Shown: piece after piece, positions 5,317 through 33,120 of the stretch
How positions within the stretch are numbered: position 1 is the first letter of the stretch
How the letters are laid out: the number at the start of each line of letters is the position of its first letter
IMG/VR virus record: IMGVR_UViG_3300014202_000270
Strand: one strand, 5' to 3'
Origin: a virus
DNA length: 64,000 nucleotides
Made by a program: the position numbers and the translations under genes
The notes under the pieces: model-generated
Seen by the model: the letters and a program-made list of their open reading frames with translations, nothing else
What the model was told of the DNA's origin: nothing
Database searches by the model: none

Positions 5317-6354
5317 TTACAGTTTTACATTACCAACTAAGAACTCATAGGGAAGACTAAATGAGCGATTTGAGTAATGATAACTTGCTTTGTTGAGTAC
5401 ATCTGTAAGACGTTCTTGCCAAACATTCATAGTTTCGTCTGTAACATCGAAAACATAGCACATGTTGAACTTATCAACTACCACAAAGTGAAAGTTGATT
5501 TTCCACATATTAGCGTCTGGTTTACTGAGAACTAACTCGTGGTGAACCATTCTGACGTAGAGTGCTGCCTGTAACCAATAATTATAGAACTCTATTGTTG
5601 TTGGAAACTCGCTGAGTGTTTTACCACTTGTCTTAAGGTCACATATTGTTATAACCTTCTTAGAGTGGTCAATGGTTATATTATCAATTATACCCTTTAA
5701 ACCAAAAGGGTAAACTGGTCTATAATCCCTTGATATAAACATCTCATTGTATACTTCTTGTAACTCAAACTGTGCCTCTGTGTTTAAAAGCTCATAAGCC
5801 CGCTTATTTTGCTTTACTGCTACAACGGCCTCTTCACAAATTCTCAGTGTCTCTTCGTCGATTAAATCTTTACCTAAGCTTGATTTGAGGTACGAGAAGT
5901 ATTGTTTGGATTGGTCTGTGATAATCTTTTCGAGTCGCTTCTTATCACCTGTCAAATGTACATCTTTTTTGTCATCTACCAAACTTTGATAGAGATTTAT
6001 TTCTTGCATGTGTGCAAGTATCTCTTTATCATAGTCTTCTAGATTTTTCTCAAATTCTTCTTGTTTTAGAAAGTGTTCTTTGAAAATGTAATCTACAATT
6101 CTCCGTATGCTATCCCCGGGAAGATTCGTGGGAACAACCACAAAGAAATCGTCAAAGCGTCCTTTATCAAGAAGAAGAGTATGTATAACCTTACCTGTAA
6201 TCAAATAAGATTCTACTTTGTCTTCTCTTTCATTTAGGATGTAATGCTTATAAAAAGCTGACGGCGAATACAGTAATTTGTTTAGTGAGGAGTAGCTAAA
6301 GTAAAAATCTGTAGCGTAGAATTCTCCTTCTAGTGCAAGTTCATCAAAGTTCAT
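5317..6354 (-). CDS. PD-(D/E)XK exonuclease (RecE/ExoVIII/Cas4-like fold)
   Basis: FSYSSL start, GKVIH, LKGIIDNI...DLKTSG, YWLQAALY motifs. Confidence 0.8.
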   Translation of the reverse strand: MNFDELALEGEFYATDFYFSYSSLNKLLYSPSAFYKHYILNEREDKVESYLITGKVIHTLLLDKGRFDDFFVVVPTNLPGDSIRRIVDYIFKEHFLKQEEFEKNLEDYDKEILAHMQEINLYQSLVDDKKDVHLTGDKKRLEKIITDQSKQYFSYLKSSLGKDLIDEETLRICEEAVVAVKQNKRAYELLNTEAQFELQEVYNEMFISRDYRPVYPFGLKGIIDNITIDHSKKVITICDLKTSGKTLSEFPTTIEFYNYWLQAALYVRMVHHELVLSKPDANMWKINFHFVVVDKFNMCYVFDVTDETMNVWQERLTDVLNKASYHYSNRSFSLPYEFLVGNVKL

Positions 6355-7582
6355 TTTGTTCTTTACGTTTATCGTTTATTTCTATTTGTTCAAGAACAGA
6401 CTCAGCAATTAAAAATTCTGTGTCTATGAAATCGCATTTTACTTTATGCTCAGAGAACATATATTTTTCAATTATCCACTTGTGTTCAGAAAACATATAT
6501 CCTGATTCTAGCAGATGTTTAGAGTCGTTTTCAACAGCTCTTTGACCACCCATAGCACCACGAAATCTATGTGGTGTACTCATCTCTCCTTTATTTAACT
6601 TTGTTCTAACAAACTGCACAACAGCTTGAAAGTTAACATGTTTAAAGTAATCAGAAGAGGCAACACTTTGATAGTTAAGATTCATCAGTAACACTATATA
6701 AAATAGAGATTCTTCAAAATCACAAGAAGCTATTATTTCTAGAGCTGTATCATTATTAGACTGGTCTTGGCTTTCTAACATGTTGTTTAATGACTCAAAC
6801 AACTCTTTATCAATAACTGTTACATTGATTAGCTTAGTAACCTCTGAAGAGTTAATGATTTTCATGTTGTTCTGCAGTGCATAAAGTAAAGCCTGTAATT
6901 TTTCATTGTTTAACTCTACATAGTGACGTAAGTCTATACATATTACATCACCATCTTCATCCTTTTCACGTGTAGGATTAGTGAGAAAATTTACTGTTAA
7001 AGGATCAGGTGCATTTGATAAATTATTAAAATAGATGCGTCTTTGAGTAGAGTCTGGTTCAGATAGCATTCTTCTAAGGTCATAATCTACTCTAACCATA
7101 AGTTTGGTTATAGAATGAGCTTTACATAGTTCTACAATTTTTGCAAACTCTAATTTTATATTTTCTTTTCCTTCATCGCTGTATCCTTGTCTATGCTGTA
7201 AATCAAACTTTACCCAGTTGTGAAGTTCATCTAGATAGATTAATTCATGAGCCCAGGTATACTCAATCATGTTGTCTATGTAACTATCTTTGTTAATAAC
7301 TAAGTAATCAGCTTTTTGAATATCTCTTTTTACCTGTAGAGTTTTATTGTCTTTAAGGGCGCCGAGTTTAGCTCTTGGAATTTTACAGGACTTATCTATG
7401 AATATACTAGGAAAGTTACTAGTGTCAAAAGTAGATAAGTTTAAATGACGCTCTATGTGTCTTTTAAGATGATCTTTATCATCATCTGCTATAATCAACG
7501 GATTTTCAGATAGTGTAATTGTTTTGAAACCTACCTCTTTATTAAAGATTACATTAACAGCTATATGTGTTGGCTTAAGCAT
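6344..7582 (-). CDS. Hypothetical protein (412 aa) downstream of the AAA+/VWA pair
   Basis: Long ORF; no motif recognised. Confidence 0.7.
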   Translation of the reverse strand: MLKPTHIAVNVIFNKEVGFKTITLSENPLIIADDDKDHLKRHIERHLNLSTFDTSNFPSIFIDKSCKIPRAKLGALKDNKTLQVKRDIQKADYLVINKDSYIDNMIEYTWAHELIYLDELHNWVKFDLQHRQGYSDEGKENIKLEFAKIVELCKAHSITKLMVRVDYDLRRMLSEPDSTQRRIYFNNLSNAPDPLTVNFLTNPTREKDEDGDVICIDLRHYVELNNEKLQALLYALQNNMKIINSSEVTKLINVTVIDKELFESLNNMLESQDQSNNDTALEIIASCDFEESLFYIVLLMNLNYQSVASSDYFKHVNFQAVVQFVRTKLNKGEMSTPHRFRGAMGGQRAVENDSKHLLESGYMFSEHKWIIEKYMFSEHKVKCDFIDTEFLIAESVLEQIEINDKRKEQNEL

Positions 7583-7687: not shown

Positions 7688-9911
7688 TTAGCTCGCAGCC
7701 ATCTTTACTAATTCTGGATTAGTCATAATTTTCTGGAACTTCTGTTTGTTACCAGATAATAATGCACGTACAATAAAGTACTTAATATCCTTAGTAAAGA
7801 TTTCCTCATCTGTAGAAACAGTAATGATTCTTTGAATCATATCTGGGGTAACAGGATTGTTTTCCGCATGCATTAATGCATAGTTTACAATCCGAGTGCC
7901 CATTACACTAGCAATGTCTGCTCTGTAATTATCTCCTCTACCAATGTTGGTGCGTAAAGCGCCTACAATGTATGACATATCTTTGCTGAAGATATCTTTT
8001 GGAGACAATAGTTTATCAAGTTTGTTGTTGATAAACATGGTAAACATACTAGCAAATTCATTACCAACAGAACCTTCACCAATCATTTGAATTAAACCTA
8101 GTGAATCATCAAAAGATTCAATACAAGAGATTGAGTTGAAGAAAGTAGTAATGCTACGAGGGTTGAGTGTGTCAGTAACTAACTCTGGATTCAACAACAA
8201 AAAGTTGATGCATCGAGTGTCAATATTAACTTTCTCTGCCCAGCGGGCCCATACATCAATGTCAAATTTAGTTTCAACAGTGATGAAACGAGTCTTTTGA
8301 GCATTGTCAAGAGATGTAACTTGATAGTTACCATTGTCTGGGTTAGTGGTTAATACAACGTGCCAGTTCTTTGGTAAACGCCAAGAAATATATTCTTGCC
8401 GGTCAATGATTTCCATACAAGCTTGCATAAAGCGGTGCATTTGTGTTAACTCATAGGCTCTTTATCCTATGATTCTGTAGTTTCTTTTAGATTATATCTA
8501 CAGGTCAGACTATATCATCACATATTTCTATGTGTCATGCGCTCGTGGTGTTTTACTGTCTGTTCTAGACTCCATACACTAGTCGTTGCACCTTCCTTAT
8601 ATCCCTATAAGGCTTGGCTCAGGATTGTCCATCTCTGGAGTTTCCCTGAATTCACATGATTTATTGCGGACCACCCGCTTTATGCTTTTTTCCATCTATA
8701 ACCACCAGCAGTTAAGTTCTTAGATATTGCTCTATTAATATTAGAAATACCAAGTTCTTTACTTGCTTGTTTTATAGATTCCCATTTTTTGATAAAAATA
8801 TTATCAATAGTAAATTGTAATACTGGTTCCAGCTTATATTTTTTATCTCTAGAAAAAACTAGATCTACTTTATTATAAGACCAGATATATCCACCTGCAG
8901 AAGTTGAATTACTCATACAAACTGCTTTTATGCCATTAATACTTTTGGCATTAATAGATTTAGCTGCAGCTGTAAGAGATTCATAACTTTCTAAATACTC
9001 ACCTGTATCAAGTGAATACTTATGTACCGCTTTAAGATTATGAGGTTTTAAACCATTTGCAAAAGCTTTTTTTCTAGATATGCTAATCCTTTCTCTATAT
9101 ACAGAATCTCTTACTAAACTTTGTGGGTCTAGTATGTGATTTATATAAGGATTAATCTCTCTAATGTGATAAGCTTCTCTTTCAATTAATACATCTTCAG
9201 TACAAACTTCTAAAACTTCAAAATAGATGTTATTAGCACCATATTTGTTGTATAGATTTTGCATTGTTCTGTTATGATGTTTTAAGTTTTTAAGAGACCA
9301 CAAATGGTGTTTTAACCTATGACCAATATTACAAGAGCTACCAATGTACTCTTTATCATTAATTTTAATTTTATAGATTCCTATACCCTTTAATGCTGTC
9401 TTAAGAGTTTGTGTGTTTAATTTTTCCATACCATAAAGATAATTAAATTATTCACACAAATACTTCTTGACTGCATATTTTGTTAATCCGCGCGGGTATA
9501 ATCATCTAAAATTAAGAAGCCACCTTCACCACGGCCCTGAATCCACTCTGGAGCAGCATGCGTCATACGCTTTGCCCCGGTGGGTTTATATTTAGCTTGA
9601 ATATACATTGACATTACTGAATCTTGAATCCAAACTTTTTTACCGTCATCTTTTACCATCTCAAATTCTTTGACGGGAAAACCAACAAGGTCACCTAATT
9701 CCTCAATCTGAGATAAACTTAGTTTTACAATTTGCATATTAAGCTCTTCAGCTAATTGAAGTAGAGATGAAGTCTTACCAAGACCTGCCTCGCCTTCGAT
9801 ATTCACTGCTACAGGAATCTTTCCTTCTCCTTGAATATGTTGATTGTTTTTTACAATGTGACGTAAGAACTCTTTTAGTTCGTCAAGATTTAGTTTTACT
9901 ACGTTGTTCAT
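7688..9911 (-). CDS. MoxR-like AAA+ ATPase split by a group I intron (exon 1 9486-9911, exon 2 7688-8437; 391 aa spliced)
   Basis: Walker A GEAGLGKT and Walker B LILDD in exon 1; splicing restores DDYTRAD|HRFMQACME; adjacent VWA gene. Confidence 0.9.
8438..9485 (-). mobile_element. Group I intron (1048 nt) carrying a homing endonuclease ORF in loop L1
   Basis: 5' exon ends in U, intron ends in G. Core motifs AATTCAGGGAAAC, GACAATCCTGAGCCAAG, GGTGCAACGACTA, GATATAGTCTG. IGS GCGGGTG-GTCCGC (8666-8678) pairs with 5' exon GCGGAU (U.G at the splice site) and with 3' exon CACCGC. Confidence 0.92.
8680..9429 (-). CDS. Intron-encoded GIY-YIG homing endonuclease with NUMOD1-type repeats
   Basis: GIYKI...YIGSS...RLKHH; C-terminal VHKYSLDTGEYLESYESL and VLQFTIDNIFIKKWESI repeats. 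Confidence 0.9.
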   Translation of the reverse strand: MEKLNTQTLKTALKGIGIYKIKINDKEYIGSSCNIGHRLKHHLWSLKNLKHHNRTMQNLYNKYGANNIYFEVLEVCTEDVLIEREAYHIREINPYINHILDPQSLVRDSVYRERISISRKKAFANGLKPHNLKAVHKYSLDTGEYLESYESLTAAAKSINAKSINGIKAVCMSNSTSAGGYIWSYNKVDLVFSRDKKYKLEPVLQFTIDNIFIKKWESIKQASKELGISNINRAISKNLTAGGYRWKKA

Positions 9912-13405: not shown

Positions 13406-14134
13406 TTAAAGTTCAAAATCCCCTGTGGGAGAACCAAACGACTCTCCTGTATCAAAAGGAGGTAGATCATCAGAATCACCACCACCTGCAAAAGAAGAAA
13501 CTTCTTTAGCTCCAGGTTTCTTGGTGACATGTACGTTAGCATCAAAAGGCATCAATCTAGAAGATCCCTCTTCTACATCATTTCTTTCCATTGCTACTTG
13601 ACCTTTTCCTGTTCTTGGTAGGAACAAATCATATCTTGTGTAACCCTCGCGGCTCAGATACTCCTTACCACCAATACAGAAATTAATCAATGCACCACGG
13701 AAAGGTTTTTGAGCATTTAATGCATTAACAAAAGACTCAATAGTGTCATGCTTCTCATCTTGATCATTAAACCAAGATGTTGTATCGGTAGCTTCACAGA
13801 TAGTTTTAATTGCCCGCAAGATTTCTGTATCACGAGAAACTTCACGGCCAGTTTTAGTAACACCATCTACATAGGCATACTGACTCATTTTAACGCGTCC
13901 AACTTGACCTTTGTATTTAGGCCCATCTGGTTTGTCTTTGTTAATAGCAAAACCTTCAAATCCAGGAATCTCTTTAGTTTCTAACTCCAGGATAATATGG
14001 TAGGAGTTTTCTACAAAAGTGAAAGGTTCTAGTCTTACTTCAAGAATCTTTGCTGTTACATTTCCTGGCTCAATTGTTTTTGAGACATAACTACCACCAC
14101 CTTCAGTGGTTACTTTTTTTGTGCTTAGTGCCAT
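13406..14134 (-). CDS. Putative single-stranded DNA-binding protein
   Basis: Lies between primase and AAA_24 ATPase; acidic C-terminal tail ending GDFEL. Confidence 0.55.
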   Translation of the reverse strand: MALSTKKVTTEGGGSYVSKTIEPGNVTAKILEVRLEPFTFVENSYHIILELETKEIPGFEGFAINKDKPDGPKYKGQVGRVKMSQYAYVDGVTKTGREVSRDTEILRAIKTICEATDTTSWFNDQDEKHDTIESFVNALNAQKPFRGALINFCIGGKEYLSREGYTRYDLFLPRTGKGQVAMERNDVEEGSSRLMPFDANVHVTKKPGAKEVSSFAGGGDSDDLPPFDTGESFGSPTGDFEL

Positions 14135-14145
14135 TTTTGATTGAT

Positions 14146-15102
14146 TTAAAAGTTAATGATTGATTTACGTACTAGTTCTAGATCGTTAGGAATCTCATCT
14201 GATTCAAACATTTCGAGTGGTGCTTTACATGTGTTATCGCCACTGTTCTTTGTCTCAAAGACATATCTAAGATTATTGTCCTTGTCTTTCTTTACCTTGC
14301 CATATAGTACAATGGAAAATAAACCTTCGAGAGTAAGTTTCTCGTCAATCATTTTGCCGATTGTTTTAGCTTTGGTTTTACGAGCGCCAGCGCTATCATA
14401 AAAGTCTTCAGCATGTGTAAGGAAGAAGATTACAAGATCTTGTCTCAAATCTTTTGGTGTTTTAGCAACAGCTGCTATACCGGCACCAATCTGAGTAAAT
14501 TTCTCATCGTTAAACCTATATACTTTCATATATAGCCGGACTATATCATATTTGATTTTTTTTATAGCATAAATACTTTTATAAATCAAATCCACCTCTT
14601 TAGTCTCTGAACCTTCATCCTTTATAGGAAGCTTGGCTGCGGATTGTCCATTGTACATACTATAGCTTTTTACTATACTGTTGTGATTAGCAACACCCTT
14701 TATTATATTACTATATAAAGTTAGTACCATAGTCTTTAGGATATCCCCGCAATTTAAGTGGTTTTACAAGGGCATGATTTAATTCCACCCTTTTTCTAGA
14801 GCTCTATCAAAGAACTCAAAGCTTGACATATACTGCCAATCATCAATTACAATAGTTTTGATCTCTGGCCGGGATGTGGATACATATTCTAAAGCTTTGA
14901 TAACACCTCCAGGAGTAGATGTATTACTCATGTTACCCTGGGGATAGTCTTTGCTTACAAGTATGTACTTTTCTCGCCAGCCTTTAAAAGGCAAAGGTTT
15001 GTTTGCAACGTTGATAATAAACGTTGTTTCAGGATCTAAAGTGCGGATACTGGTAGACTTACCAGATCCAGACTCAGCAATGATTAAGCATGCTTCGGCC
15101 AT
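14146..15102 (-). CDS. AAA_24/Sak4-like ATPase split by a group I intron (exon 1 14787-15102, exon 2 14146-14507; 225 aa spliced)
   Basis: Walker A AESGSGKS, Walker B IVIDD; splicing joins GGG T|AT GAG to give ALEKG-Y-EKFTQIG in frame. Confidence 0.88.
14508..14786 (-). mobile_element. ORF-less group I intron (279 nt)
   Basis: Core motifs AATTGCGGGGATATCC, GGACAATCCGCAGCCAAG, AGGTTCAGAGACTA, ATGATATAGTCC. P1 exon AAGGGU pairs with intron GCCCUU (U.G at the site); P10 UCAU pairs with 3' exon AUGA; terminal G. Confidence 0.9.
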
Positions 15103-15632
15103 CTTTCTTTAATTAATTGGTTTAAAAATGATTTGTCGCTTACAGGAGACTGCCACAATATTGCAGCAAGGTCCTTAATAGTCATCTGATCAATGGGCGC
15201 ATCATTGTCAGGATCCATGATTTCAAAAGATTTACTCTTAGTCTTAAGACTTGGTAACTCTTTTGGTGCAGATTCAATTTTTGTATCTACAGTTACTTCA
15301 TGTAACTCATCAACAGGAATTAAATATCTCATATGTCCAGAGCTAGTAGGTATAGTGTCATACTCCTCAGCAAAATGAGGATTGTATTTCCATCTATAAA
15401 GTTTACGCTGTGGATCCTCGGGTTCTAAATTAGAACTCACATATTCTGTATAGACATCAGTGCCTCCGCTAAGTTCATTAGCAAAGAAGCCCATACAGTA
15501 ATAATCTTTGTCTTGAGGTTTCCAAGCTAACTTAGGAACAAAGTTAGCATCTGGGATTCCGAGTGCGTTAAATACTAGTTGATGATGTTCTTTTAATTCT
15601 TTGACGATTTCTGCTCTTGTTTTTGTTGACAT
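15084..15632 (-). CDS. Conserved hypothetical phage protein
   Basis: 182-aa ORF between DnaB and the ATPase. Confidence 0.7.
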   Translation of the reverse strand: MSTKTRAEIVKELKEHHQLVFNALGIPDANFVPKLAWKPQDKDYYCMGFFANELSGGTDVYTEYVSSNLEPEDPQRKLYRWKYNPHFAEEYDTIPTSSGHMRYLIPVDELHEVTVDTKIESAPKELPSLKTKSKSFEIMDPDNDAPIDQMTIKDLAAILWQSPVSDKSFLNQLIKERWPKHA

Positions 15633-32602: not shown

Positions 32603-33120
32603 AAAATATAGGTCGTTCAGATTATCCTGCTAATAGACCACAGCAGCTTGTTGAGGACTCGCAATCTTTGGTAGATCACTTACAAGGTTAGTATTTTCCC
32701 CCTGTCGGTTGTTATTTCTCATATAAATAGGATTCAACAGATTACCAGTCTGCATCATGTGGCTTAACACATATACTCCTAAATTAATATGGTTCGTCAC
32801 AAACCATTAAGCATCTACCTCTGTGACTTTCTTGAGATAGAGATAAGCGTCAACAAAGAATAAATTCTTTATAATACTTCTAAAGTTATATAACTTCCAC
32901 AACATATCAAGTTGCTTATAACTGCATGGTTTTTAAGTCTGCACAAACGCTTAATCATAGAGATTATATCTCATATGATACCATTACACTCTGCAAAAGT
33001 GTTTGATACTATCTATTTTACTTGCAGTAATAGATAGAATGGTGTCGTTGCCCCACATGCTTGTCAAGGTTTATCAACCTTAAAGAAAAATTTGGAAGCT
33101 TACGGTTTACCAACCTTGGT

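What the first reader, a model, noticed from the sequence alone, without database searches (positions are those of the whole stretch)
14146..15102. Hidden 279-nt ORF-less group I intron in an AAA_24/Sak4-like ATPase
The ORF track reads through the intron as a false 194-aa protein. P, Q, R and S motifs, a 6-bp P1 with U.G, a P10 and the terminal G are all present, and splicing yields KG-Y-EKFTQIG. This is a very compact ribozyme in a recombination/annealing gene.
Basis: partly seen in the sequence, partly recalled or inferred. Interest (0 to 1): 0.7.

Follow-up and report, generated by a model that had tools for sequence, protein, structure and literature searches.

The report
ORF-less group I intron in phage ATPase
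A 279-base self-splicing-type (group I) intron really does split the Sak4-like recombination ATPase gene of this crAss-like phage; it is a well-supported but ordinary new example of a known kind of mobile element, here caught without its homing endonuclease gene.

Summary
Confirmed. On the minus strand, window 14508-14786 is a 279-nt group I intron that splits a 225-aa Sak4-like/AAA_24 ATPase gene (exon 1 15102-14787, exon 2 14507-14146). Rfam RF00028 scores it 60.6 bits against a cut-off of 50. Two close relatives (G001, 97% nt; L008) carry the same gene uninterrupted and lack exactly these 279 nt. This fixes the junction at AAAGGGT|ATGAGAAA (EKG-Y-EKF). P1 (6 bp with U.G), P10 (4 bp), the terminal G and the P/Q/R/S core are all present. 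Of 77 proposed base pairs, 16 show compensatory double changes across five distinct family members. The same intron sits at the same site in seven other viral contigs whose ATPases are only 55-60% identical. Four of those carry an intact HNH endonuclease gene in loop L8. One of them (L088) has a ribozyme 98.9% identical to this one, so the window's copy is most likely a recent endonuclease-deletion derivative. The intron lacks P2 and P7.1/P7.2. It has a P5abc-like extension shared with Bacillus Herelleviridae introns. Group I introns in the crAss-like ATPase gene ATP_43b (apparently this gene) were already reported (Yutin 2021). This is a new member of a known kind. Splicing itself was not observed.

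The parts
14787..15102 (-). Exon 1 of the Sak4-like/AAA_24 ATPase gene (codons 1-105 plus the first base of Tyr106). It holds Walker A (AESGSGKST) and Walker B (IVIDD).
   Evidence: Translation. PHROG 2872 profile 1-99, E 4.6e-22. Collinear with G001 and L008 up to 14787.
14508..14786 (-). Group I intron, 279 nt, with no endonuclease ORF. An in-frame TAA lies at intron nt 6-8. The last base is G (14508).
   Evidence: Rfam RF00028 60.6 bits. Exactly absent from G001 and L008. Covariation.
14146..14507 (-). Exon 2 (last two bases of Tyr106 through the stop codon at 14148-14146).
   Evidence: Translation. PHROG 2872 profile 101-210, E 2.2e-34.
14768..14792 (-). P1 and the internal guide sequence. 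Exon AAGGGU (14792-14787) pairs with GCCCUU (14773-14768), with U.G at the 5' splice site. UCAU (14777-14774) is the P10 guide for exon 2 AUGA (14507-14504). No P2 follows.
   Evidence: coordinates. P1 is recovered by the MFE fold. All pairs are invariant in 5 family members. The Gly codon is GGG in all intron-bearing alleles but in only 4 of 80 intron-less ones.
14592..14761 (-). P3 (CCACUU 14761-14756 with AGGUGG 14597-14592), which encloses the P4-P6 domain and the 5' strand of P7.
   Evidence: 3 of 6 pairs show compensatory double changes.
14637..14752 (-). P4 (14752-14746/14643-14637), P5 (14741-14739/14649-14647) and a P5abc-like three-way extension. The extension has a 12-bp stem (14733-14722 with 14675-14672 and 14666-14659) carrying an AAAAA bulge (14671-14667). 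It also has hairpins P5b (14720-14698) and P5c (14695-14679).
   Evidence: RNAalifold consensus. The count of structure pairs on this domain together with P6: 96.7% of cells paired against 34-51% for slid controls, 16 of 35 pairs with double changes, 0 of 500 shuffles as high. The domain is shared with the Bacillus phage Mater polA and Grass terL introns.
14612..14636 (-). P6 (CC 14636-14635 with GG 14613-14612) and the P6a hairpin (14629-14618).
14539..14605 (-). P7 (GACUA 14605-14601 with UAGUC 14543-14539; the R and S elements, the guanosine-binding helix). It forms a pseudoknot with P3. P8 (14591-14583 with 14558-14550) has a 24-nt L8 loop. No P7.1/P7.2 lies between P7 and P3'.
   Evidence: Rfam alignment, MFE fold. 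P8 has 2 compensatory pairs. L8 is the site of the 560-nt HNH insert in L088.
14516..14535 (-). P9, an 8-bp hairpin with a GAAA tetraloop, followed by an 8-nt tail (GUUUAACG) whose last base is the terminal G.
   Evidence: One compensatory and two one-sided changes.

Best explanation
Window 14508-14786 (minus strand) is a group I intron in the conserved Sak4-like (AAA_24, RecA-fold) ATPase gene of the replication block of an uncultured crAss-like phage. The gene is transcribed as one pre-mRNA. The ribozyme folds into P1, P3-P9 and a P5abc-like extension. An external guanosine bound in P7 attacks after the U of the P1 U.G pair (14787). The freed exon 1 is held by the guide sequence, and P10 aligns exon 2. 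The freed exon 1 end then attacks after the terminal G (14508). The result is an mRNA with the junction AAAGGGU|AUGAGAAA that encodes a 225-aa ATPase. Unspliced RNA yields only a 107-aa fragment, because a TAA follows two codons into the intron. The element belongs to a site-specific mobile intron family whose full form carries an HNH homing endonuclease gene in loop L8. The window's copy is most likely a recent derivative that lost that 560-nt gene, so it can no longer home by itself. It is inherited vertically, or mobilised in trans or by recombination during co-infection. Shown here: the ribozyme signature, the exact boundaries, structural covariation, presence/absence polymorphism and the endonuclease-bearing sibling. 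Inferred: catalysis, the direction of the endonuclease change (loss rather than gain) and homing.
For: The Rfam group I model scores 60.6 bits against a cut-off of 50, E 6.8e-13.

Exact intron-less alleles exist. G001 (97% nt; 18 differences in 678 nt, of which 2 change an amino acid) and L008 both join window 14787 directly to 14507. L008 has identical flanks, GGGT|ATGAG. All 80 best viral-contig relatives are uninterrupted, as are 218 of 219 deposited phage records.

The spliced protein aligns without a gap over EKG-Y-EKF to the Acinetobacter, Vibrio and Hafnia phage homologues. PHROG 2872 profile positions run on continuously across the junction. AAA_24 passes its Pfam cut-off only for the joined protein.

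The structure is supported. The MFE fold recovers P1, P4-P9. Of 77 proposed pairs, 16 carry compensatory changes and only 1 of 385 cells is broken. The P4-P6 domain is 96.7% paired against 34-51% in slid controls, with 0 of 500 shuffles as high.

There is evidence of mobility. The same intron sits at the same site in 7 other viral contigs whose exons are only 55-60% aa identical. L088's ribozyme differs from the window's at 3 of 279 positions. It carries a 560-nt L8 insert encoding an intact HNH endonuclease (phrog_3377, E 1.6e-43). L097 and L117 carry intact orthologous endonucleases at 81% and 69% aa identity.

The window's L8 keeps 20 nt identical to the sequence just upstream of L088's endonuclease gene. 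The GCTATA motif in that stretch is conserved in all endonuclease-bearing copies. The other ORF-less lineage (L095) has only a 4-nt L8 loop.

All intron-bearing alleles use GGG for the glycine codon, which gives the third G-C pair of P1. Only 4 of 80 intron-less alleles do.
Against: No RNA evidence was obtained.

The single-sequence fold energy is not exceptional (z = -1.2), which is usual for AT-rich introns.

The direction of the endonuclease event (loss versus gain) rests on parsimony and on L8 remnant similarity, not on a rooted tree.

No co-conversion tract longer than about 12 nt is visible in the exons, so homing history is inferred from intron-versus-exon identity alone.

No endonuclease homologue lies in the 64-kb window, so the current means of spread, if any, is unknown.
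Confidence: 0.92

Rival explanations
1. The element is a group I intron by descent but is no longer able to splice. The ATPase gene is then a pseudogene, or is expressed only as a 107-aa N-terminal fragment.
For: The endonuclease gene has been lost, which in the homing cycle precedes intron decay (general knowledge; review PMC3984707).
Against: All core pairs, including the P7 G-binding helix, P1 U.G, P10 and the terminal G, are intact and identical to those of the endonuclease-bearing L088 copy. Both exons are open. They differ from the intron-less G001 allele by 16 silent and only 2 amino-acid-changing substitutions. The gene is one of four highly conserved replication-block genes, present in most crAss-like phages (PMC7886860).
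Confidence: 0.04
2. The ORF-less intron is the ancestral state in this lineage. On this view the HNH gene invaded L8 of an L088-type copy later, and the window never carried the endonuclease.
For: ORF-less members exist in a second lineage (L095/L110/L129, 261 nt). Endonuclease invasion of ORF-less introns is a documented route (collaborative homing; PMC3984707).
Against: The endonuclease-bearing copies are the more diverse set, with ribozymes 81-99% identical to the window's and endonucleases 69-81% identical to each other. Their endonucleases sit at the same place in L8 with a conserved upstream GCTATA motif. The window shares 20 nt of that upstream L8 sequence, whereas L095 has a minimal 4-nt loop. 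A 98.9%-identical ribozyme pair differing only by a clean 560-nt block is more simply a recent deletion within an old endonuclease-bearing clade.
Confidence: 0.25
3. It is not an intron. On this view two separate genes (a Walker-A/B half and a C-terminal half) are divided by a structured intergenic RNA or a recombination scar.
For: The mechanical ORF track shows two ORFs of 107 aa and 194 aa.
Against: Rfam hit above threshold. Exact 279-nt absence in two relatives restores one ORF. The 194-aa ORF starts inside the ribozyme's P5 extension. The homologue profile is continuous across the junction.
Confidence: 0.01

Closest known systems
Group I introns in crAss-like phage core genes, including the AAA ATPase ATP_43b (Yutin et al. 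2021, PMC7886860)
   Same: Same phage assemblage. The neighbouring helicase's best hits are crAss-like phages at about 33% identity, and the ATPase is 35% identical to the crAss001 'ATP/GTP-binding protein'. It is apparently the same conserved replication-block ATPase, next to DnaB and primase, and it is interrupted by a group I intron.
   Different: Those introns were found in human-gut Delta and Zeta group genomes by searching for endonuclease domains, so ORF-less copies like this one would have been missed. Insertion sites and ribozyme structures were not described in the text I read. I did not test whether ATP_43b is the orthologue, beyond homology and gene order.
HNH-bearing group I introns of Bacillus Herelleviridae (SPO1-like) phages, for example the Mater DNA polymerase intron and the Grass terminase intron
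   Same: The P4-P6 domain, including the P5abc-like three-way extension with its A-rich bulge, is 71-77% identical at the DNA level and covaries consistently. The Mater intron carries an HNH (NUMOD4) endonuclease ORF downstream of the ribozyme's 5' half.
   Different: The host phylum and host genes differ (polA and terL rather than Sak4). The Grass intron has extra sequence after P1 and between P7 and P3', where P2 and P7.1/P7.2 would lie; in the shorter Mater stretch I saw only unaligned extra sequence there. The window's intron has nothing at either place. The window's copy has no ORF.
Phage T4 td/nrdB/sunY and Staphylococcus phage Twort introns (subgroup IA2; background knowledge and review PMC3984707)
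   Same: [quoted passage not shown] They have a stop codon early in the intron, endonuclease ORFs in peripheral loops, and natural presence/absence polymorphism among related phages.
   Different: IA2 introns have P7.1/P7.2, which are absent here. The host gene and insertion site are different. I did not assign a subgroup.
Group I intron in Bacillus anthracis recA (Ko et al. 2002, cited in PMC3984707)
   Same: A group I intron inside a RecA-fold recombination ATPase gene.
   Different: That host gene is a bacterial chromosomal recA, not a phage Sak4-like core-only ATPase. No sequence relationship was tested here.

Membership tests
Group I intron (Rfam RF00028) | Covariance-model score at or above the curated gathering score | tested here: met
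   60.6 bits against 50, E 6.8e-13, full model 1-253.
Group I intron (Rfam RF00028) | P1 helix formed by the 5' exon end and an internal guide, with a U.G wobble at the 5' splice site | tested here: met
   AAGGGU pairs with GCCCUU, 6 bp with a terminal U.G. It is invariant in 5 family members.
Group I intron (Rfam RF00028) | Terminal guanosine (omega G) as the last intron base, and a P10 pairing with the 3' exon | tested here: met
   The intron ends ...UUUAACG|AUGA. UCAU, immediately 5' of the guide, pairs with AUGA. Boundaries are fixed by the intron-less alleles.
Group I intron (Rfam RF00028) | Conserved core P3-P9 with the P3/P7 pseudoknot and the P, Q, R and S elements, supported by covariation | tested here: met
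   All helices were located. 16 of 77 pairs show compensatory changes and 1 of 385 cells is broken. The P4-P6 domain beats shuffled and slid controls.
Group I intron (Rfam RF00028) | Guanosine-binding G-C pair in P7 next to a bulged A | tested here: met
   The sequence CAGAGACUA / UAGUCC gives G182-C248 with A181 bulged and G180-C249 stacked above. These numbers count from the first intron base; G182 and C248 are window 14605 and 14539. This is shown at the level of sequence only. The assignment is by analogy with the Tetrahymena P7, from background knowledge.
Group I intron (Rfam RF00028) | Excision restores a continuous, conserved reading frame | tested here: met
Group I intron (Rfam RF00028) | GTP-dependent self-splicing activity | not testable with these tools
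Subgroup IA2 (T4 td / Twort type) | P7.1 and P7.2 helices between P7 and P3' | tested here: not met
   Only 3 nt (AAG) separate P7 (to 14601) from P3' (from 14597). The second intron of the window and the Grass intron do have an insert there.
Subgroup IA2 (T4 td / Twort type) | P2 helix between P1 and P3 | tested here: not met
   Only 6 nt (GUAAAA) lie between the P1 3' strand and the P3 5' strand.
Mobile (homing) group I intron | Intron-encoded homing endonuclease | tested here: not met
   There is no endonuclease ORF in the 279 nt. The only long frame is read-through into exon 2. There is no HNH homologue in the window. The sibling copies in L088, L097, L105 and L117 do carry an intact HNH.
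Mobile (homing) group I intron | The same element at the same site in divergent host genes, together with intron-less alleles | tested here: met
   The ribozyme is 98.9% identical to L088's, against about 55% aa identity in the exons. 7 viral contigs carry the intron, while the 80 best relatives do not.
Sak4-like / Pfam AAA_24 ATPase (host gene) | Pfam AAA_24 at or above the gathering score, and a PHROG Sak4-like profile match | tested here: met
   P0003, the intron-less allele that differs by 2 aa, scores AAA_24 30.6 bits against 27 over residues 5-194. PHROG 2872 gives E 4.6e-22 and 2.2e-34 for the two exons. Exon 1 alone is below the Pfam cut-off.
Sak4-like / Pfam AAA_24 ATPase (host gene) | Single-strand annealing or recombination-mediator activity | not testable with these tools
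   The name comes from PHROG and GenBank annotations only.

The most novel reading that the evidence does not exclude
The endonuclease-less intron may not be mere junk on its way to loss. It may be kept because it acts as an immunity allele. By splitting the EKG|YEKF target in a core replication gene, it would protect this phage from the HNH endonuclease of co-infecting L088-type crAss-like phages. This would be interference competition of the kind shown for PhiPA3 (PMC11620839), at no coding cost. The same gene is a two-site intron hotspot with three endonuclease families (HNH, LAGLIDADG, GIY-YIG). That fits an ongoing arms race over this ATPase among environmental crAss-like phages. A second, smaller novelty would be that the pared-down architecture (no P2, no P7.1/P7.2, but a P5abc-like domain shared with Herelleviridae introns) marks an undescribed structural variant.
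Probability: 0.3. Interest if true: 0.5.

Novelty: new member of a known kind. Interest (0 to 1): 0.3.

Why it matters
For annotation, the two fragment ORFs (107 aa and 194 aa) should be merged into one 225-aa Sak4-like ATPase. ORF-less introns like this one are invisible to endonuclease-domain searches of the kind used to count introns in crAss-like phages, so intron load in these genomes may be underestimated.

For biology, the locus offers a ready natural series in one gene family:
- intron-less alleles (G001, L008);
- an endonuclease-less intron (the window; L095);
- an endonuclease-bearing intron (L088, L097, L117);
- twin-intron alleles (L088, L095).

That series is a compact system for studying the homing cycle and possible intron-mediated competition in uncultured crAss-like phages. 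The near-identity of the ribozyme across ATPases only about 55% identical also documents recent horizontal transfer among distinct environmental phages.

Tried and rejected
- The window's own assembly is not held. I used the nearest record, G001.
- Megablast of 12 kb around the locus against deposited phages found nothing.
- Rfam failed to detect the endonuclease-bearing copy and the upstream intron in L088, at both the gathering and the E-value thresholds. The large loop inserts break the model. I identified those introns by alignment to the window's intron and by their S-element motif instead.
- Pfam found no domain in the L088 endonuclease, nor in the two genes flanking the ATPase in the window. 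PHROGs identified the endonuclease as HNH but gave nothing for the flanking genes, so there is no sign of a free-standing endonuclease next to the intron.
- A global MAFFT alignment of full-length endonuclease-bearing and ORF-less introns misplaced the 3' ends. I redid it in blocks.
- I looked for a co-conversion tract in the exons. Apart from the GGG codon at -2 and about 10 identical bases, none is visible.
- I considered assigning a subgroup (IA2, IB or IC). The defining IA2 features were not met and no subgroup-specific models were available, so the subgroup is left unassigned.
- The metagenome-contig scan, structure prediction and complex prediction were not used, because the question did not need them.

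Full report
**The observation**

The gene lies on the minus strand. The mechanical ORF list shows a 107-aa ORF (15102-14779) ending ...ALEKGWN*. It also shows a 194-aa ORF (14730-14146) whose first 74 or so residues have no homologues and which then reads ...EKFTQIG.... Translating 15102-14788 and 14505-14146 gives the two halves of one protein. PHROG 2872 ('Sak4-like ssDNA annealing protein') matches the first half to profile positions 1-99 (E 4.6e-22) and the second to 101-210 (E 2.2e-34). Exactly one position is left over, for the split Tyr codon. An Rfam scan of the whole window returns Intron_gpI (RF00028) at 14517-14822(-) with 60.6 bits, E 6.8e-13, against a gathering score of 50.

**Boundaries**

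The proposed intron is 14786..14508, 279 nt, beginning GGAAUU and ending UUUAACG. The window's own assembly is not held. The nearest held virus record is G001 (118 kb). It carries the same gene at 97% nucleotide identity, with 18 differences in 678 nt and only 2 amino-acid changes. It has none of the 279 nt: window 14787 is joined directly to 14507.

G001 differs at exon position -2 (GGT instead of GGG). A second relative, L008, is also uninterrupted and has identical flanks, GGGT|ATGAG. No other placement of the boundaries is compatible with these alleles.

The joined protein (225 aa) aligns without a gap over EKG-Y-EKFTQIG to uninterrupted homologues from Acinetobacter, Vibrio and Hafnia phages. 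The intron-less allele P0003 passes the Pfam AAA_24 gathering score (30.6 against 27 bits) with one match spanning residues 5-194. Exon 1 alone does not pass.

**Structure**

The minimum-free-energy fold of the single sequence already recovers P1, P4, P5 with its extension, P6/P6a, P7, P8 and P9. The coordinates of all helices are:

- P1 pairs AAGGGU with GCCCUU, 6 bp with U.G at the splice site.
- P10 pairs UCAU with AUGA, 4 bp.
- P3 is 6 bp and P4 is 7 bp.
- P5 is 3 bp and carries a three-way extension. The extension is a 12-bp stem interrupted by an AAAAA bulge, with two hairpins.
- P6 and P6a follow, then P7 (GACUA with UAGUC, preceded by a bulged A and a further G-C pair).
- P8 is 9 bp with a 24-nt loop.
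- P9 is 8 bp with a GAAA loop.
- The intron ends in an 8-nt tail whose last base is G.

Only 6 nt separate P1 from P3 and only 3 nt separate P7 from P3'. There is therefore no P2 and no P7.1/P7.2.

Five distinct family members gave covariation data (see the next section). Of the 77 proposed pairs, 16 show compensatory double changes: P3 has 3, P5a has 5, P5b has 3, P5c has 2, P8 has 2 and P9 has 1. Only 1 of 385 cells is unpaired. P1, P10, P4, P5, P6 and P7 are invariant.

I also ran the session's pair-counting tool on seven sequences, including two Bacillus phage introns. The P4-P6 domain is 96.7% paired against 34-51% when partners are slid by 1-3 columns. 16 of 35 pairs have double changes, and 0 of 500 shuffles reach the observed values.

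**Family and mobility**

- *Rarity.* The 80 best relatives of the ATPase in IMG/VR are all uninterrupted. So are 218 of 219 matching deposited phage records.
- *Other carriers.* Searching intron sequence instead found the same intron at the same codon in seven viral contigs. Their ATPases are only 55-60% identical to the window's.
- *ORF-less copies.* L095, L110 and L129 hold a 261-nt ORF-less version, 80% identical to the window's intron.
- *Endonuclease-bearing copies.* L088, L097, L105 and L117 hold 836-839-nt versions.
- *The nearest sibling.* In L088 the ribozyme differs from the window's at 3 of 279 positions. The whole length difference is one 560-nt block in loop L8. That block encodes a 184-aa HNH endonuclease (phrog_3377, E 1.6e-43). 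Its stop codon is the TAG inside the GAUAUAGUCC S element.
- *Orthologous endonucleases.* L097 and L117 carry intact orthologues at 81% and 69% aa identity.

A ribozyme 98.9% identical inside exons about 55% identical indicates recent horizontal transfer.

**Loss or gain of the endonuclease gene**

The window's L8 keeps 20 nt identical to the sequence just upstream of L088's endonuclease gene. That stretch includes a GCTATA motif found in all endonuclease-bearing copies. The L095 lineage has only a 4-nt loop. I read this as deletion of the endonuclease gene in the window's lineage, at about 65-75% against later gain. I found no HNH homologue in the window, and the two flanking genes match no family.

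**The target site**

Among the 80 intron-less alleles the glycine codon before the site is mostly GGT or GGC, and is GGG in only 4. Every intron-bearing allele has GGG, which supplies the third G-C pair of P1. L008 shows that a GGG allele without the intron exists in the window's close kin. It is either the susceptible recipient type or the product of precise intron loss; I could not tell which. Beyond this codon I saw no co-conversion tract.

**Context**

The neighbouring DnaB-like helicase has its best matches in crAss-like phages, at about 33% identity. The ATPase is 32-35% identical to the 'ATPase', 'ATP/GTP-binding protein' or 'Sak4-like' genes of crAss001, DAC15 and uncultured cr-phages, where it likewise sits beside the replicative helicase.

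Yutin et al. 2021 list an 'ATP_43b AAA domain ATPase' among the conserved crAss-like replication genes. [quoted passage not shown] Those introns were found through endonuclease domains (PMC7886860). A full-text search for 'group I intron' together with 'Sak4' returned one paper, which I did not open; neither term is in its title or abstract.

The P4-P6 domain of the window's intron is 71-77% identical to unannotated stretches of Bacillus Herelleviridae genomes. These stretches are introns in the Mater DNA polymerase gene (with an HNH/NUMOD4 ORF) and in the Grass terminase gene. The Grass intron has additional sequence where P2 and P7.1/P7.2 would lie.

**Mechanism**

This part is inferred from the established group I pathway and was not tested here. 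External guanosine docks in P7 and attacks after U14787. P10 then aligns exon 2. The freed exon 1 end attacks after G14508. The TAA two codons into the intron stops ribosomes on unspliced RNA, a feature noted for many bacterial and phage introns (PMC3984707). Without its endonuclease the intron cannot home by itself. It may persist vertically, be mobilised by a relative's endonuclease during co-infection, or serve as protection against that endonuclease (compare PMC11620839).

**Verdict**

The element is a new, well-documented member of a known kind (phage group I introns; introns in the crAss-like ATPase gene were already reported). It is therefore of modest interest. The added value is a corrected gene model and the natural series of allele states listed under 'why it matters'. 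What is missing is any direct evidence of splicing.

Noticed in passing
window 8438-9485 (-), Rfam core hit 8488-8724: A second, larger group I intron (RF00028, 84.9 bits) lies here. A block of 1048 nt is exactly absent from the 96-98% identical relative G001, so both introns of this window are missing from that relative. Its Rfam alignment shows an insert between P7 and P3', where P7.1/P7.2 would lie, unlike the intron studied here.
   Followed up: partly
window 32924-33087 (-): Rfam assigns a Hatchet self-cleaving ribozyme (RF02678, 64.1 bits against a cut-off of 51, E 9e-11) with a large insert in its variable stem. The region is conserved at 92% in G001.
   Followed up: partly
L088 5972-8406 (+): The ATPase gene of this 24.8-kb viral contig has two introns. 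The upstream one (about 6239-7147) sits right after the Walker B motif (...IIDD|WQY...). It encodes a LAGLIDADG_2 endonuclease (Pfam E 2.8e-22) and has a GAUAUAGUCU S-like element. The downstream one is the HNH-bearing copy of the window's intron. The exon between them is only 52 nt. Rfam detects neither intron.
   Followed up: partly
L095 3378-5199 (+), also L110 and L129: These contigs combine the ORF-less 261-nt version of the intron with an upstream intron of about 830 nt at the same ...VIDD| site. The upstream ORF starts MAYIYTLEHP...IRYIGVT, which looks like a GIY-YIG endonuclease. That reading is by eye only and was not profile-tested. Three endonuclease families therefore target two sites of one small gene.
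   Followed up: partly
L089-L129 (viral contigs): The 22-nt P5'-P4'-P6 core string AATGGACAATCCGCAGCCAAGC occurs exactly in 42 stretches of IMG/VR, including contigs labelled as giant-virus MAGs (GVMAG). One 226-kb contig has five copies (L099, L102, L109). This suggests the intron core lineage is spread widely across very different viruses.
   Followed up: no
window 13406-14134 (-) and 15084-15632 (-): The two genes flanking the ATPase (242 aa and 182 aa) match no Pfam or PHROG family. A homologue of the 242-aa protein follows the ATPase in L088 too (the ORF at 8406-9023 shares the GQVGRVK motif), so the pair is syntenic.
   Followed up: no
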